Of a stretch of DNA of 64,000 nt, positions 14,286 through 27,010 are shown in pieces. The notes beneath the pieces were generated by a model. The model made no database searches, was not told the DNA's origin, and saw only the letters and a list, made by a program, of their open reading frames with translations. A program made the position numbers and the translations under genes. Origin of the DNA: a virus. The stretch's first letter is position 1. Every line of letters starts with the position of its first letter. The stretch lies in the UHGV virus genome UHGV-0213393, one strand, 5' to 3'.

Positions 14286-14314
14286 AAGCCCGCTTGGTTG
14301 AGCGGGCTTCTTTT
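14286..14314 (+). terminator. rho-independent terminator
   Basis: agcccgc-ttggttga-gcgggct plus tcttttc. Confidence 0.6.
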
Positions 14315-14694
14315 CAAATATTGGAACCATATAGTTCACGTAGTTTTTCCGCTACTGAAGATACGGGGATTTCACCAGTTGCAGCCCCCACCGCAAGTTC
14401 CACCAGCACGGGAGAATCATATACCTGTATACCGTTACGGCGTAGAAATAGCAGCGCACTGTTTAGCGCGGTACGCTTATTGGCATCATTGAATATATGC
14501 CCTCTCGCAGTAGCCACCAGGTAGGTTGCGGAGACTTCGAAAAGGTCGGTGATCTCTTCGTAGGCAACTCTGGCCTGAACTCTCCCGATAATGGCCTCTG
14601 CCCTACCCGGATCTGACATTCCCGGCAGGCCGCCGTAGCGGTTTATATTCGCATCATGAAGCGCAATAAGTTCTTCCGGTGATATATGCCTCAT
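14314..14694 (-). CDS. doc: Doc toxin (Fic-family kinase, death on curing)
   Basis: Sequence [17 protein letters not shown]...[19 protein letters not shown] matches P1 Doc as recalled, including the Fic-type motif. Confidence 0.95.
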
Positions 14695-14915
14695 TATCGG
14701 TTAACCAGTTCCTTGTTGGTGGAGTCCAGGGTGTCAAACAGGGATGCAAATTCAGCATCCAGCGCCGCTTTTTTGTAGGCTTCGAAAGTAGCCTTGCTGA
14801 CAATTACTGCTGGCTCACGGCCTCTGCGGGTGATTTCAACCTCTTCCCCAGCTTCAACATTGTTGAGCACTTCAGAAAGGTTGCCACGCGCGGTACGGAA
14901 GTTAATGGATTGCAT
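14694..14915 (-). CDS. phd: Phd antitoxin
   Basis: [32 protein letters not shown]... matches P1 Phd as recalled; stop overlaps doc start. Confidence 0.95.
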
Positions 14916-22095: not shown

Positions 22096-22131
22096 AATAT
22101 GTTAGAAAATTAAAATTAATATTCTAACACG
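22096..22131. promoter_or_regulatory. operator-like inverted pair
   Basis: atgttagaaaat-N9-atattctaacac upstream of the minus-strand 21062..22057 gene. Confidence 0.55.
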
Positions 22132-22161: not shown

Positions 22162-22848
22162 TTACGACGGTCCTCCCTTCACCTGCTTTAGCGTCAGATT
22201 TCCGCAAAAAACCGCGCCAGTGTCTATGTAGTGCTGGTTCCAGAAAGATTTCTGCCTGTTTACTGGCGTATGCCCGAAAATAAAGCTATCTGCACCAGTG
22301 ATCATTCCACCAACACCATCAACCGCGTCATAAAATCGCTCACGCCGCCAGGTAACATTGAGATCGCTAACAGGTTTACCAAACTGGTATTCGTTATCAG
22401 GATAGTCGGCATGGGCTATAACGATAGTTTCATGCCCGGTGTTCAACTCAATGATATAGGGCAGACGTCTTACCAGCTCCACCAGCGCCCTGGCTAATAT
22501 TTCCCGATCAGCGTCCAGCATGAAGAACCATTGACCGCCATTCATTAGCCAGTTATTCACATTGCCTGCGAGACTTAACGCATCGATCATTAATCGCTCG
22601 TGGTTTCCCATAACCGACCGAAACCAAGGCATCTGCAATAGCTCCAGGCATTCAACATTTTCGGTGCCGCGATCGATAAGGTCGCCAACCGATATCAGTA
22701 AATCCTGTGTCGGGTCAAAGTCCACACGATGAAGTTCAGACATCAATCTGGTGTAGCAACCATGCAGATCACCAACAACCCATATGTTTCTGTAGCCTGA
22801 ACCATCAATACGGCTATATAAATTCACTTCATGCAGCGCCTGGGTCAT
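22162..22848 (-). CDS. Ser/Thr protein phosphatase (lambda PPase-like metallophosphoesterase)
   Basis: Motifs GDLHG, GDLIDRG and GNHE; extended collinearity with lambda phosphatase as recalled; start set at MTQALHEV. Confidence 0.85.
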
Positions 22849-23149
22849 GCGGCAACCTTCTCCCGCAGCCAGATACAAACCGGACCATCTTCAGTGTCAT
22901 GAATAGAGCCAACAAACCAGCCTTCGCCCTCTGGTCGCTCCGGTTCCCAGGCGGCAATATCGGGACCATCTGCGTCCAGATTAAAATCATCTTCATCCAT
23001 ACTGCGAATAGTCCACTGAAGATTATCATCCAGGCGTCAAATTCCTCAGTGGATATATATTCACGACCTGCGCAAAACTTTTCATGCTCCGGATGTGTCC
23101 AGCAGCCATATTCATCACGTTCTACCGGCATTTCTTTAATGATGCTCAC
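22829..23149 (-). CDS. hypothetical protein
   Basis: 106-aa ORF in a tightly packed minus-strand operon. Confidence 0.45.
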
Positions 23150-23370
23150 TCTTCATCCTCCAAGTCGGCAACGGCCTCCATCACATCAGAACCGCGAATA
23201 ACCTCAAAAGCACGGCAGGCCATTTCAAACACCTGTTGTTCTTGCGGATGCGGTGACTCCCAATACTTAAAACCAGGTCGATGCTCGTACCCCATCATGG
23301 AATAAAAATCGCCAGCAAGTTCAATCGCGGCATCAACAAGTTCGCGATTTGTCATCGTCTGTTCTGTCAT
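23146..23370 (-). CDS. hypothetical protein
   Basis: 74-aa acidic ORF, coupled. Confidence 0.45.
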   Translation of the reverse strand: MTEQTMTNRELVDAAIELAGDFYSMMGYEHRPGFKYWESPHPQEQQVFEMACRAFEVIRGSDVMEAVADLEDEE

Positions 23371-23642
23371 TTTGTTTTCTCCTGTCTGAACATCACTATC
23401 ATCAGGTCGCCTTTTGTCGCTATCCTCGCTGTTGTGCCTGGTTCAATGCTGCCAAGTTCAAATGCGTCATAGAACGCTTCTAATGCCTTCTGGCGTAGTT
23501 CCTGTTTGCGCCGTTTTTTCCACTGTTTCAGGAAAATGGAACCCAGCCATCGCCATGTACGGGACATGATGTAAAGCCAACCGAGAAGTGCCAGACCGGA
23601 ATTTAGGAGCGTATCGATCGTTATTGTCGTGTCGATATTCAC
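23367..23642 (-). CDS. hypothetical membrane protein
   Basis: 91-aa ORF with a hydrophobic helix. Confidence 0.45.
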   Translation of the reverse strand: MNIDTTITIDTLLNSGLALLGWLYIMSRTWRWLGSIFLKQWKKRRKQELRQKALEAFYDAFELGSIEPGTTARIATKGDLMIVMFRQEKTK

Positions 23643-24322
23643 TTGCTGCTTCCTCTTCGAAGCTCATCGGCAATACTTACGCATATCTCTGCGCCTCTAA
23701 TCAGCCCCGGAACGTTCTTGTTTGGCCCAACTTCACCATCAACAAAATCAATCATCGCGTTACGAGCCATATCCACGCCCTGCGCCCGTACTTCAGCCAG
23801 AATTTCGTCAGTGGCTAGAGTTTTTCTCGAACGGTAAGACCAAACAATGTCGTCTGTTTCACTAGGCTCTTCATGAGAGCAATTTGGACAGACAGCAGTA
23901 CAACCGGCATGATCTTCTATGAGCATCTTCAACCACTCATTTTCCGCCGCCAGCCTCACGCGACTGGCCTCCAGTTCTGCTACGCGCTGTTTTGCAGCAT
24001 CCAGCTCAACCGACAATTTTTCCAACTGCTCTTTATGCTTCTTGTATTCCTGATATGCGTGCCAAGACTGACCTTTGCGCACACTATCAGTGATATCAGC
24101 AACCTGCTCTGGTGTTAGCGTGGTCAGTGGCTGTGCTGGAAAAATCATCACTTGCCCGGCATCCCAATCAAAACCCACCTGAATTGACTGAACCTCAACT
24201 GATGGTGTTGAACCGATGCGACCAGGCGAATGAACAACGATCGTTACATCCATATCGCGATGATGGCTGTGGTTGTTGGACAAAATGCGATTCACCAACT
24301 CAGAAAATTTGGAAAATTTCAT
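23639..24322 (-). CDS. hypothetical protein
   Basis: Start chosen at MKFSKF where ATG overlaps upstream stop (ATGA); coiled-coil plus Cys pairs. Confidence 0.5.
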
Positions 24323-24642
24323 GCTGATTCCCTTTGCTCTTCCTGGATAATGTTGTTGCAATCTTTCACGCACTCGTTGCAGATGAAAACGTTGTCCCCG
24401 GCAATTAACTTTTTAACGGTGTGCTGGGATTTGTTGCAGAAGCTGCAATAAAGCGTTGGACTGGCTGATACGGATGGTGCGCCAGATGTCAGCCGCGCGA
24501 TGTCGTTCTTGCGACGCAATATCACACGGCTGCACTCGACCAGCATCTCCGGGGATATATCCTCCTCCGTGGCGAGCGCCTCCAGACGTTCGAGCAAGCG
24601 AAATACTTTTTCCTGGGTGATTGCAGAATGCGATGTGGTCAT
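24319..24642 (-). CDS. small protein with ClpX-type zinc-binding-domain-like C-terminus
   Basis: C-terminus [39 protein letters not shown] resembles the ClpX N-terminal zinc-binding domain; start at MTTSHS with RBS AAGGAG. Confidence 0.55.
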
Positions 24643-24643
24643 C

Positions 24644-25135
24644 TCACTCTCCTTTGATGCGAATGCCTGTTGCAATGCTGTTTATGATGCTGTCAGTGCA
24701 TGGGGTAGAAAGCTGGGCATCTCCAGCAATTTTCATGACCTCAACATCTGCATATCGAATACCGAGGTGTATCAGACCGGCTATGCCTGACTTAAGCCGA
24801 GCATTTTCCATAAATAGAACCTTTGCCCGCTGTTTTTCTGCTTCAAGCTCAACGCGCAGCTTCCCTACCGTTAGCGCAATATCCTCGTTCTCCTGGTCGC
24901 GGCGTTTGATGTATTGCTGGTTTCTTTCCCGTTCATCCAGAAGCGCCAGCACGGTTTCTGGTCCGGCCAGAAATTTGAAGGCGTTGAGCGCATCAATATC
25001 CACACCGTAATCTTTAAGTTCCTGTTCACTTATCAGATCATCATCAACTGGCAACATTAACAGGCGTTCCATTGCCGGAATTGCACGTTCTGCCGCCTCA
25101 CGCAGCGCCAGTGTGTCGATGTCGATTTTGCTCAT
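24644..25135 (-). CDS. Ead/Ea22-like protein
   Basis: N-terminus [18 protein letters not shown]; RBS GAGGAGG. Confidence 0.55.
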
Positions 25136-25398
25136 TGTGCCTCCTCGATTTCGTCCCATTCCACCCAGGCATTCTCTCCATCAGCATCGATTTCACCTTT
25201 GTGACCGCATTTGGAACAAACGGCCTCATCACCCGCCCACAAAGAATCTTTGGTTACCGACCATCCTGTTACCTTGGCTTTGCCGTGCTGGCACTTAGGG
25301 CAATCATCAAGCCATTCGACTTCGACCGTTGAAGGACCAAATCCATGTTCAGTTCGGATGCTCATGACTGAACTCCTTTGCGAATCTGTTCCGCCCAT
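25132..25398 (-). CDS. small zinc-ribbon protein
   Basis: 88-aa ORF with CPKC ... CSKC. Confidence 0.45.
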   Translation of the reverse strand: MGGTDSQRSSVMSIRTEHGFGPSTVEVEWLDDCPKCQHGKAKVTGWSVTKDSLWAGDEAVCSKCGHKGEIDADGENAWVEWDEIEEAQ

Positions 25399-25865
25399 TC
25401 TTCAAGGGATTTCTCCGCATATTCACCGGACAGGCCATCAATCGGATGCGGTTCATTAGCCAACTCTTCTTTCGCTGACAAAATCATGCGTGTAACGTCG
25501 AAAACTTCACGCAAAGACTTATTGATAAATCCGTGATTGAACGCAGCAGCAAGACGGCTTGCGGTGTAGTTAATCCCCTCGTTGCGTGCCTCCGCACGTA
25601 TTTCAGCCAGGAAAGCGTCGGTGGCTGACATATTTCCTGTTGCCTTCATGGCCTTCAAAATAACCAGAACGCCATCTTGCCCAACCAACTCGGAGATAAT
25701 CTCAGTGTTGTCGCCAACAACCTCACAGAATGCCTGAACAGCTTTACGAGCAAGAGCATTCTCCGCCGCCAGCGCCGCGCGCTCTTTCTCAAGTCGGGAA
25801 ATTTCCGTTACATACTCAGCGTTACGCTCTGCCAGTTGTGCGGGCGTTAAACCTTCAGACTTCAT
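25362..25865 (-). CDS. hypothetical protein
   Basis: 167-aa ORF. Confidence 0.45.
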   Translation of the reverse strand: MKSEGLTPAQLAERNAEYVTEISRLEKERAALAAENALARKAVQAFCEVVGDNTEIISELVGQDGVLVILKAMKATGNMSATDAFLAEIRAEARNEGINYTASRLAAAFNHGFINKSLREVFDVTRMILSAKEELANEPHPIDGLSGEYAEKSLEEWAEQIRKGVQS

Positions 25866-26172
25866 GCACTCTCCTTTCGAAATAAACGTACTGATTAATC
25901 ATGCCCAGGGGCATTTCGAGTTTTTCTGCGATCTCACGGCGGGGAACGCCACACTGATGAAGCTGCCGCGCCAGCTCTATATCGCTCTGCCGGTATTTGG
26001 CTGACTGGTGAAAGTCACCTTTCAGAATCATGCTGATCCGCAATTGCCGCGCTTTAGTCCTGACAGCACCACCGGTACGCCCGATCAGTCTCCCAATACC
26101 CTCGACTGTCATAGTCCCGGCGCACTGGCGGAGTATCATGATTTCTGCCCTTCCCCATCCCCGCCAGCTCAC
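25855..26172 (-). CDS. HTH DNA-binding protein
   Basis: 105-aa ORF with helix-turn-helix-like segments. Confidence 0.4.
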   Translation of the reverse strand: MSWRGWGRAEIMILRQCAGTMTVEGIGRLIGRTGGAVRTKARQLRISMILKGDFHQSAKYRQSDIELARQLHQCGVPRREIAEKLEMPLGMINQYVYFERRVHEV

Positions 26173-26780
26173 GCAGAACTCCTTCTAACCAAAAGAACGC
26201 CATCTTCAGAAACAACGTTGCAGGACTTCAGGTAATTCATTGCCTCTTTCGGTAATGGATTCTTTGGATCGGCGCTTGCCAGGGATTTCGATAACCTCAT
26301 GATAAATTTGATCATTACCTTCTGACGGAGCTTGTGCTCATGAGATGCAGACAGGTAATAGGAAATGGTATGGGCTAAACGCTCACGAAGCTGTTCTGTG
26401 CCGTGATATACAGCAGCGATATCACGTAGTGCATTGACCAGTTCCCGGTAAATATGCGGAGCAACCTGGCATTCAATGTTGGTTGGTGACTCATAAATTA
26501 CATTCAGCCCCAGCTTTTGAGCCAGCTCGTGCTCTGCACGAGCGCCAACTGATTCCTCCCACCCCTTGAGCAAATAGACCGCATTAGCCGAACGCACCAT
26601 TGCAAGGCAAATATCCATGTATTCGCTCTCGCAGAGGCCAGCAGGTAACAGCGCCGGATTCAGAACAATATGCCCTACCTCCATCAGCTCTTTTGCTTTC
26701 GAAAAAAACGCTGTGCGGTTGTAGTCGGGATAACCAGTCATCGGACCCGCGATGTAAATTTTCATAATGCGTTTTGACAT
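26169..26780 (-). CDS. DUF4406 / nucleoside 2-deoxyribosyltransferase-like protein with C-terminal shared module
   Basis: MKIYIAGPMTGYPDYNRTAFF...VLNPA pattern; C-terminal YRELVN...QLRER module shared with the 15609..16502 protein; start ambiguous (26765/26780/26807). Confidence 0.5.
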   Translation of the reverse strand: MSKRIMKIYIAGPMTGYPDYNRTAFFSKAKELMEVGHIVLNPALLPAGLCESEYMDICLAMVRSANAVYLLKGWEESVGARAEHELAQKLGLNVIYESPTNIECQVAPHIYRELVNALRDIAAVYHGTEQLRERLAHTISYYLSASHEHKLRQKVMIKFIMRLSKSLASADPKNPLPKEAMNYLKSCNVVSEDGVLLVRRSSA

Positions 26781-26973
26781 CAAAGTTTCCCCAGGAACGT
26801 TACGCAAAAGTTGATGAGAGCAAAGAGTTCAATGCCCAGCTCAAACAACGCCAGGACAGTGAAAAACAGGGCATATAGCAACCCAATTTCTGTACCGGAT
26901 TGCTGGTGGATTGCACTTATTGCGACAAGCATCATGACCTCCTGATATAGCGTCTGAAAAAAGTATCTTCATT

Positions 26974-27010
26974 TTGTGTTAGAAAATCAATTTTGATTTT
27001 CTAACATATT
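26974..27010. promoter_or_regulatory. operator-like inverted pair in a divergent promoter
   Basis: gtgttagaaaatc-N6-gattttctaacat between the minus-strand operon and the ref-like gene. Confidence 0.6.

What the first reader, a model, noticed from the sequence alone, without database searches (positions are those of the whole stretch)
24319..24642. Standalone ClpX zinc-binding-domain-like protein
The C-terminal 40 residues ([30 protein letters not shown]) closely resemble the N-terminal zinc-binding domain of ClpX, which mediates adaptor and substrate recognition. A free copy could titrate ClpX adaptors or substrates and so protect phage or plasmid proteins from ClpXP, or redirect proteolysis.
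Basis: partly seen in the sequence, partly recalled or inferred. Interest (0 to 1): 0.5.

Follow-up and report, generated by a model that had tools for sequence, protein, structure and literature searches.

The report
Phage copy of ClpX docking domain
A temperate E. coli phage-plasmid carries a small, well-conserved gene whose product joins a novel helical domain to a faithful copy of the zinc-binding "docking" domain of the host unfoldase ClpX, most likely a decoy that diverts adaptors or substrates from the ClpXP protease, though no experiment has tested this.

Summary
Window 24319-24642 (-) is a real 107-aa gene with a strong ribosome-binding site, packed inside a long early accessory operon of a D6/P1-like phage-plasmid. 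Residues about 64-101 are a ClpX C4 zinc-binding domain (ZBD): Pfam E=1e-17, about 70% identity to E. coli ClpX, and a model that superposes at 0.6-0.8 Å. All four Cys and the F16/I46 ligand pocket are kept.

Residues 1-53 are a conserved helical hairpin found nowhere else. The two-domain protein also recurs in three unrelated temperate phage types: D6-like plasmids, lambdoid prophages and P2-like prophages. It is present in 195 of 5426 complete E. coli genomes.

Both domains are under purifying selection (dN/dS about 0.2-0.6). Synonymous sites against host clpX are saturated, so selection, not recent capture, keeps the ClpX likeness.

The best reading is a dimeric decoy or competitor for ligands that dock on the ClpX N-domain. 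Published in-vitro data show that isolated ZBD inhibits RssB-dependent sigma-S degradation. No experiment on this family was found.

RefSeq already names it "ClpX C4-type zinc finger protein", or wrongly "carboxylate--amine ligase". Only the function would be new. Interest is moderate.

The parts
24319..24642 (-). Complete 107-aa gene with ATG start and TGA stop. It encodes a two-domain protein: an N-terminal helical hairpin followed by a C-terminal ClpX-type zinc-binding domain.
   Evidence: ORF list and sequence. Full-length match to phrog_6797 at E=1e-56. 100% identical copies are annotated 'ClpX C4-type zinc finger protein' on E. coli plasmids.
24484..24642 (-). N-terminal domain, residues 1-53, predicted as a helix-turn-helix hairpin (helices 10-25 and 31-52). 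Invariant charged residues are E11, E18, R19, E21, E26, E27, E36, R43, R44 and D47.
   Evidence: AF2 secondary structure. Alignment A3. dN/dS is 0.27-0.30. No Pfam or PDB match. An exhaustive phmmer search of 1.84 billion representative proteins found 9 hits; the full-length relatives among them also carry the ZBD.
24454..24483 (-). Flexible linker, residues 54-63 ([10 protein letters not shown]). It is also the recombination junction in chimeric relatives.
   Evidence: pLDDT is below 50 for residues 56-60. dN/dS is about 1. P0022 and P0024 carry other N-termini fused at GAPSVS.
24322..24453 (-). ClpX-type C4 zinc-binding domain (treble clef), residues 64-107. The zinc ligands are C66, C69, C88 and C91. 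The equivalents of the ClpX F16/I46 pocket are F68 and I98.
   Evidence: Pfam PF06689 at E=9.8e-18. PDB sequence match. Foldseek rmsd of 0.6-0.8 Å to 2ds5/2ds6/2ds8. Per-site conservation.
24649..24654 (-). Shine-Dalgarno AAGGAG, 6 nt upstream of the ATG.
   Evidence: Read directly from the sequence.
24319..24322 (-). ATGA overlap of this gene's stop with the start of the downstream 227-aa gene (23639-24322), which suggests translational coupling.
   Evidence: Sequence and ORF list.
22162..26935 (-). Segment of the accessory operon that holds the gene. In order: a small 51-aa ORF, DUF4406, a 105-aa DNA-binding-like protein, a 167-aa protein, an 88-aa Cys-rich protein, an Ead/Ea22-like protein, the ZBD protein, a 227-aa protein, DUF4752, two small ORFs and a metallophosphoesterase (ppp).
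   Evidence: ORFs. Pfam. Annotation of near-identical plasmid NZ_LR890273 and of phage D6.
26977..27006 (.). Perfect palindrome TGTTAGAAAATCA-ATTT-TGATTTTCTAACA in the divergent promoter region between ref (+) and the accessory operon (-). It is probably the operator of the prophage master repressor.
   Evidence: Sequence. The 13-mer occurs 16 times in the window against 2.2 expected, and 15 of the 16 sites are intergenic.

Best explanation
The gene encodes a small soluble mimic of the ClpX N-terminal docking domain. Its C-terminal ZBD folds and probably dimerises like the ClpX ZBD. It presents the same hydrophobic pocket (F16/I46) that ClpX uses to dock adaptors (SspB tail, RssB, trigger factor) and ZBD-dependent substrates (lambda O-type initiators, MuA). 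The gene is probably expressed from a repressor-controlled early operon after derepression or infection. The protein would then compete with ClpX for those ligands and so lower adaptor- or ZBD-dependent ClpXP degradation and remodelling, leaving ZBD-independent degradation such as ssrA tags intact. The conserved N-terminal hairpin is inferred either to add a second dimerisation or avidity element, or to bind one particular host partner. Shown here: the fold, the conserved pocket, selection on both domains, the fixed two-domain architecture, and the phage distribution. Inferred: zinc binding, dimerisation, competition, timing of expression, and the identity of the physiological target.
For: The ZBD is identified by sequence and by model. 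The four Cys, F68 and I99 are invariant, and position 98 (I46) is I/V in nearly all of 41 distinct sequences. F16/I46 form the pocket shared by trigger factor, lambda O, SspB and RssB (PMC7804408 section 13). Deleting the ZBD abolishes lambda O and RssB/sigma-S degradation, and isolated ZBD in trans inhibits sigma-S turnover (PMC7804408; PMC7226468). Against E. coli clpX, pS is 0.86-1.0 (saturated) while pN is only 0.15-0.28 and 26-31 of 37 residues are identical, so selection preserves the ClpX-like surfaces. dN/dS is 0.22-0.63 for the ZBD core and 0.27-0.30 for the N-domain, but about 1 for the linker and tail. The family sits in D6-like phage-plasmids, lambdoid prophages and P2-like prophages with no neighbour shared across types, which points to a host target. 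The operon starts at an operator-like palindrome that recurs at other operon starts.
Against: No experiment on this family was found in ten literature searches. A plain decoy would not need a second conserved domain, yet the N-domain is always present and is at least as constrained as the ZBD. In clade A, including the window protein, the pocket-side helix positions 41, 42 and 45 vary. L42 is Asp in the window subclade, and ZBD dN/dS rises to 0.63, so specificity may differ from ClpX. A titration mechanism needs expression at least comparable to the ligands, and expression level is unknown.
Confidence: 0.45

Rival explanations
1. The protein is a direct ClpX binder, acting as a poison or as an adaptor. 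Its ZBD would heterodimerise with a ClpX ZBD, or its N-terminal hairpin would dock on ClpX. That would either block the N-domain trimer-of-dimers or tether a specific phage or host protein to ClpXP for degradation or remodelling.
For: ClpX ZBDs are constitutive dimers and the phage ZBD is 68-84% identical across the core. The obligatory N-domain, with its invariant charged residues, looks like a specific protein-binding surface. Movement of the ZBD dimers and their occupancy are known to control degradation rates (PMC7804408).
Against: The three ZBD dimers of a ClpX hexamer form at very high local concentration, so exchange with a free ZBD is unlikely without co-translational assembly (inference). 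Dimer-interface residues could not be checked. No partner gene is conserved next to it across phage types.
Confidence: 0.2
2. The function is independent of ClpX. The ZBD would be reused only as a small zinc-stabilised dimerisation module for the N-terminal hairpin, which would carry the real activity, for example an anti-repressor, a replication or recombination modulator, or a superinfection-exclusion factor.
For: The N-domain is under the stronger constraint in clade A: 0.27 against 0.63. PF06689 domains occur fused to unrelated modules elsewhere, for example to cyanobacterial sigma factors (PMC11119718, found but not read). In P2-like phages the gene lies between gpA and the portal gene, a region known from the literature (from memory) to collect morons and defence genes.
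Against: A mere dimerisation scaffold would not need to stay this close to enterobacterial ClpX at ligand-pocket positions while synonymous sites are saturated. Clade B keeps 30-31 of 37 ClpX residues, including P31, S32, Y34, L42, I46 and I47.
Confidence: 0.2
3. The gene is a decaying remnant of a captured clpX 5' end with no function.
For: Occasional broken copies exist: L030 is a frameshift fusion and L048 is a truncated copy with an over-long reading frame.
Against: 74 of 77 viral loci and 110 E. coli genomes carry intact copies. dN/dS is well below 1 in both domains. The gene has a strong SD and tight operon packing. There is no DNA similarity to host clpX.
Confidence: 0.02

Closest known systems
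[quoted passage not shown]
   Same: Same treble-clef C4 fold. 68-71% identity over 38 aligned residues, with rmsd 0.6-0.8 Å against the crystal structures. Same four Cys and the same F16/I46 hydrophobic pocket.
   Different: It is not attached to an AAA+ ATPase. The domain is at the C-terminus of a 107-aa protein, behind an unrelated helical hairpin. Helix positions 41, 42 and 45 and loop positions 31-32 have diverged in the window's clade. Synonymous sites are saturated relative to host clpX.
Recombinant isolated ClpX ZBD used as a competitor in vitro (Wojtyra 2003, from memory; Micevski 2020, PMC7226468)
   Same: A free ZBD without the ATPase. It was shown to inhibit RssB-dependent sigma-S degradation by competing for adaptor docking. 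This is exactly the mechanism proposed for the phage protein.
   Different: That is a laboratory construct of the host sequence. The phage protein is a natural, selected gene with an extra domain, and its ligands are untested.
Anti-adaptors IraP, IraM and IraD, and phage-encoded protease inhibitors (T4 PinA and T7 gp4.5 against Lon; from memory)
   Same: Small proteins that stabilise substrates of an AAA+ protease by blocking delivery or recognition rather than the active site.
   Different: No sequence relationship: the Pfam scan returned only PF06689. Ira proteins bind the adaptor RssB through unrelated folds. None of them mimics the protease's own docking domain.
Other stand-alone ZBD ORFs in phages (phrog_12435, phrog_5259, phrog_20296; the unannotated Caulobacter phage Cr30 ORF)
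   Same: Short phage proteins consisting largely of a ClpX-type ZBD. They suggest that phages have acquired this domain repeatedly.
   Different: They lack the N-terminal hairpin of phrog_6797 and occur in unrelated phages and hosts. None has a known function. Several jumbo-phage hits are full-length ClpX instead.

Membership tests
Pfam PF06689 zf-C4_ClpX (domain family) | Score above the Pfam gathering threshold across the whole 39-position model. | tested here: met
   64.2 bits against a cut-off of 27, with model positions 2-39 aligned to residues 65-101.
Pfam PF06689 zf-C4_ClpX (domain family) | Four zinc-ligand cysteines in a CxxC...CxxC arrangement with a treble-clef fold. | tested here: met
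   C66, C69, C88 and C91 are invariant in 41 distinct sequences. The model superposes on the ZBD crystal structures at 0.6-0.8 Å. Actual zinc binding was not tested.
ClpX (AAA+ unfoldase; NCBIfam TIGR00382 / NF003745) | An AAA+ module (Walker A/B, pore loops, IGF loop for ClpP docking) following the ZBD, with the whole protein scoring above the equivalog cut-off. | tested here: not met
   The protein is 107 aa. It scores 43.6-47.5 bits against cut-offs of 359-371, and only model positions 5-50 match. It is not a ClpX.
phrog_6797 (phage protein family of unknown function) | Full-length match to the family profile. | tested here: met
   E=1.1e-56, with residues 1-106 aligned to profile positions 1-106 of 107.
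Functional ClpX N-domain mimic (adaptor or substrate docking site) | Conservation of the F16/I46 hydrophobic pocket used by trigger factor, lambda O, SspB and RssB. | tested here: met
   F68 is invariant. Position 98 is I/V in 39 of 41 distinct sequences and I99 is invariant. The pocket is defined in PMC7804408. The neighbouring L42 is replaced by Asp in the window subclade.
Functional ClpX N-domain mimic (adaptor or substrate docking site) | Binds the SspB XB tail, RssB or lambda O, and inhibits ZBD-dependent ClpXP degradation. | not testable with these tools
   This needs biochemistry. Only the host ZBD has been shown to do it (PMC7226468).
Functional ClpX N-domain mimic (adaptor or substrate docking site) | Forms a ZBD-type homodimer. 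| not testable with these tools
Known anti-phage defence systems (PADLOC) | Match to any PADLOC model. | tested here: not met
   No families at E up to 1.
Carboxylate--amine ligase (the name given in some GenBank/RefSeq records) | Homology to an ATP-grasp or GCS2-type ligase domain. | tested here: not met
   Pfam and NCBIfam return only ClpX N-terminal matches. The name on the D6 and P88 homologues and on several protein clusters is a propagated misannotation.

The most novel reading that the evidence does not exclude
Three lineages of temperate enterobacterial phages (D6/P1-like phage-plasmids, lambdoid and P2-like) carry a dedicated mimic of the adaptor-docking domain of the host ClpX unfoldase. 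It would act as a viral 'anti-adaptor' that reprograms which proteins ClpXP degrades during early lytic development, for example by stabilising RpoS, replication initiators, antitoxins such as Phd, or SOS proteins. It would be the first natural inhibitor that works by impersonating a AAA+ protease's own substrate-recruitment domain. Its unique N-terminal hairpin would confer a second, still unknown host specificity.
Probability: 0.4. Interest if true: 0.65.

Novelty: new variant of a known kind. Interest (0 to 1): 0.5.

Why it matters
ClpXP controls RpoS, SOS proteins, antitoxins (including Phd of the phd-doc module carried on this same element), lambda O-type initiators and Mu transposase. 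Phage inhibitors are known for Lon, but I found none described for ClpX in the accessible literature.

A natural, selected ZBD decoy would be a simple new route of host takeover. It could also serve as a genetically encoded tool to switch off adaptor-dependent ClpXP degradation without touching ssrA-type degradation. The family is present in about 3.6% of complete E. coli genomes, many of them clinical isolates carrying phage-plasmids.

Separately, the finding corrects a propagated misannotation ('carboxylate--amine ligase').

Tried and rejected
(1) I looked for an identity for the N-terminal domain. There was no Pfam hit. A profile of 9 N-domains against all PDB sequences gave nothing below E=0.37. 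Foldseek against the PDB matched only the ZBD part.

(2) I scanned one genome per species (GTDB) with the N-domain. The only hit, L012 in an Acidobacteriota MAG, is a chance match ([13 protein letters not shown]) inside an unrelated 582-aa protein.

(3) I tested for recent capture from host clpX and rejected it. blastn of the gene against 5426 E. coli genomes never hit clpX, although clpX itself is in 5425 of them. Synonymous sites are saturated.

(4) I looked for a conserved partner gene. Neighbours are conserved only within each phage type, never across types.

(6) The P1 C1 operator consensus ATTGCTCTAATAAATTT has no site in the window. A different repeated palindrome was found instead.

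(7) A defence-system assignment through PADLOC returned nothing. The 'antitoxin' phrog_4681 hit is insignificant at E=0.1.

(8) Ten literature searches found no functional study of a stand-alone phage ZBD. Wojtyra 2003 and Thibault 2006 could not be opened; Donaldson 2003, Park 2007 and Thibault & Houry 2012 were not attempted. As a result, residue-level dimer and XB contacts rest on memory and were not used as tests.

Full report
**Observation**

The minus-strand ORF at 24319-24642 runs from an ATG at 24642 to a TGA at 24319-24321 and encodes 107 aa: [107 protein letters not shown]. An AAGGAG Shine-Dalgarno lies 6 nt upstream, at 24649-24654. The upstream gene stops at 24644. The stop overlaps the next start as ATGA at 24319-24322. 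The gene is therefore packed tightly in an operon.

Pfam zf-C4_ClpX matches residues 65-101 at E=9.8e-18 and 64.2 bits, against a cut-off of 27. phmmer against all PDB chains returns E. coli ClpX ZBD entries 1ovx and 2ds5 at about 1e-15. An AlphaFold2 model built from 15 family members has mean pLDDT 74, with the ZBD blocks at 77-87. It superposes on the ZBD crystal structures 2ds5, 2ds6, 2ds7 and 2ds8 at 0.6-0.8 Å over 38 residues with 68-71% identity.

Residues 10-25 and 31-52 are predicted helices forming a hairpin. Residues 54-63 are a low-confidence linker. The hairpin has no Pfam match and no PDB sequence match even with a profile.

An exhaustive phmmer search of residues 1-60 against 1.84 billion representative proteins found only nine hits. 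The full-length relatives among them (P0039, P0008, P0041, P0044) all continue into a ClpX-type ZBD. The remaining hits are a truncated copy, two disrupted copies and two repetitive proteins. The whole protein matches phrog_6797, a family of unknown function, end to end at E=1e-56. The unit is therefore hairpin + linker + ZBD, not a bare ZBD.

**Genomic setting**

The window is a D6-like (P1-related) phage-plasmid of E. coli. The 3-kb neighbourhood matches about 90-kb non-mobilizable plasmids at up to 97.6% identity, and phage D6 itself at about 91%. The gene sits in a long minus-strand operon of small accessory genes. These include DUF4406, a DNA-binding-like protein, an Ead/Ea22-like protein, DUF4752 and the metallophosphoesterase ppp, followed by DUF968/pdcB.

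The operon begins at a divergent promoter region shared with ref. That region holds a perfect palindrome, TGTTAGAAAATCA-N4-TGATTTTCTAACA, at 26977-27006. The 13-mer occurs 16 times in the window against 2.2 expected, and 15 of the 16 sites are intergenic at operon boundaries. One of them lies upstream of the c1-position gene. The P1 C1 operator consensus is absent. I infer that this is the operator of the D6-type master repressor and that the operon is an early, repressor-controlled one. This step is inference.

The same element carries the P1-type phd-doc addiction pair at 14314-14915. Phd is a classic ClpXP substrate (Lehnherr and Yarmolinsky 1995, as cited in PMC4963847 Table 2).

**Distribution**

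blastn finds the gene in 195 of 5426 complete E. coli genomes. About half the copies are on plasmids and half on chromosomes, and the copy is near full length in 110 genomes. The chromosomal copies sit in two contexts:

- Lambdoid prophages, in the nin-like region between the replication genes and RusA (L004).
- P2-like prophages, between the gpA replication endonuclease/ParM genes and the portal gene (UTI89 L003, phage P88 L006, L005).

An IMG/VR scan with the N-domain alignment returned 77 viral loci, of which 74 encode an intact two-domain protein. Two clades exist:

- Clade A (MTTSHSAIT...) occurs in D6-like and lambdoid elements.
- Clade B (MQHIDREKAQ...) occurs in P2-like phages.

No true member was found among one genome per species of GTDB; the only hit was a chance match. 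No neighbouring gene is shared across the three phage types. What the carriers have in common is the host, which suggests a host-encoded target.

**Selection**

Nei-Gojobori estimates on 41 distinct coding sequences:

| Region | Within clade A | Within clade B | Between clades |
|---|---|---|---|
| N-domain | 0.27 | 0.30 | not computable (saturated) |
| ZBD core | 0.63 | 0.22 | 0.29 |
| Linker | 1.07 | 0.69 | 1.39 |
| C-terminal tail | 1.11 | 1.14 | not computable (saturated) |

Both domains are therefore functional.

Against E. coli clpX, whose sequence I verified as 100% identical to real clpX, the ZBD codons show pS=0.86-1.0. That is fully saturated. pN is only 0.15-0.28, and 26-31 of 37 residues are identical. 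The window gene's DNA never hit clpX in 5426 genomes. The ClpX likeness is therefore old and is kept by selection. It is not a recent pick-up.

The following are conserved: the four Cys, L12/Y13, F16, K19, Q21, V24, K26, I28-A29-G30, V33, I35, E38, V40, N44 and I47. Position I46 is I/V in 39 of 41 sequences.

The variable positions are 22-23, 31-32, 37, 41-42, 45 and 48. In the window's subclade L42 is Asp. Clade B keeps the ClpX residues P31, S32, Y34, D41 and L42.

**Mechanism**

[quoted passage not shown] That pocket overlaps the binding sites of trigger factor, lambda O, SspB and RssB (PMC7804408). Lambda O and RssB/sigma-S degradation both need the ZBD. Isolated ZBD added in trans inhibits RssB-mediated sigma-S turnover (PMC7804408; PMC7226468). 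From memory, Wojtyra et al. 2003 showed the same for lambda O and MuA.

A phage protein that preserves this pocket under selection is most simply a competitor for those ligands. It would act as a natural anti-adaptor or decoy that spares ZBD-independent degradation. I put this at 0.45.

The obligatory N-domain is the main unexplained feature. It may add avidity through a hairpin dimer forming a four-helix bundle, or it may bind a specific host factor.

The rivals are:

- Direct binding to ClpX as a heterodimer poison or an adaptor (0.2).
- A ClpX-independent function that uses the ZBD only as a dimerisation scaffold (0.2). This is weakened by the selected ClpX likeness.
- A decaying remnant (0.02). 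This is excluded by the selection analysis.

**Comparison and membership**

The protein is a member of the PF06689 domain family and of phrog_6797. It is not a ClpX, because it has no AAA+ module and scores 44-48 bits against cut-offs of 359-371. It matches no PADLOC model. It has no sequence relationship to Ira anti-adaptors or other families, since Pfam returned only PF06689.

The label 'carboxylate--amine ligase' on the D6 and P88 homologues and on many protein clusters has no support. RefSeq's 'ClpX C4-type zinc finger protein' is accurate but says nothing about function.

**Novelty**

The domain call is already in public annotation. What would be new is the function. Ten literature searches found no study of a stand-alone phage ZBD.

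Other phages also carry short ZBD ORFs: phrog_12435, phrog_5259 and phrog_20296, plus an unannotated ORF in Caulobacter phage Cr30. Jumbo phages carry whole ClpX genes.

I rate this a new variant of a known kind, namely phage-encoded modulators of host AAA+ proteases, with interest 0.5.

Noticed in passing
window 26977-27006; also 1648-1677, 22100-22129, and single sites at 403, 1798, 5499, 9941, 11338, 27625, 33426, 41063, 49135, 52149: The operator-like 13-mer TGTTAGAAAAT[C/T]A occurs 16 times against 2.2 expected, and 15 of the 16 sites are intergenic at operon starts. Three sites are inverted pairs with a 4-bp spacer. It is probably the operator set of the D6-type master repressor. The P1 C1 operator consensus has no match in the window.
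   Followed up: partly
window 14314-14694 (-) and 14694-14915 (-): A P1-type doc (Fic/DOC Pfam) and phd addiction pair sit on the same element. Phd is a known ClpXP substrate, so the element carries both a ClpXP-dependent addiction system and a putative ClpX-domain mimic. ZBD-gene carriers of the P2-like and lambdoid types show no phd-doc in the flanks examined.
   Followed up: partly
L009 (Caulobacter phage Cr30) 1186-1425 (+): An ORF encoding a ZBD-only protein of about 72-79 aa (...[42 protein letters not shown]...). It is not annotated as such: the record splits the region into two 'hypothetical protein' CDSs. This suggests an independent acquisition of a free ClpX ZBD by a large virulent-type phage.
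   Followed up: partly
P0022, P0024, P0001/P0003 and loci L039, L040, L043, L030: Mosaic variants of the gene. In some, Ea22-like N-termini are fused at the GAPSVS linker to the same ZBD. In others, the first 20 aa of the 167-aa upstream gene (window 25362-25865) replace residues 1-8. L030 is a frameshift that fuses a truncated ZBD to the downstream Ea22-like gene. The accessory operon recombines at short shared motifs.
   Followed up: partly
P0025 (145 aa): A protein with two tandem ClpX-type ZBDs in one chain separated by a low-complexity DSR/DSK linker. It could be a natural 'single-chain dimer'.
   Followed up: no
L002 6742-7062 (phage D6 orf93), L006 3932-4264 (phage P88 gp19), and several clusters: Homologues are named 'carboxylate--amine ligase' in GenBank/RefSeq. 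No ligase domain is detectable, so this is a propagated misannotation.
   Followed up: yes
window 25132-25398 (-): An 88-aa protein in the same operon with two CxxC pairs (CPKCQHG...CSKCGHKG) and a weak rubredoxin-like hit at E=0.0025. It is a second small putative zinc-ribbon protein two genes upstream of the ZBD gene.
   Followed up: no
window 23639-24322 (-) and 24644-25159 (-): The genes on either side of the ZBD gene are coiled-coil proteins of the Ead/Ea22 kind. The upstream one has a Pfam Ead_Ea22 hit at E=4.5e-28. The downstream 227-aa one has no Pfam hit but carries similar AAENEWLK-type motifs. Ead/Ea22-like genes accompany the ZBD gene in D6-like, lambdoid and one P2-like context (L005).
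   Followed up: partly
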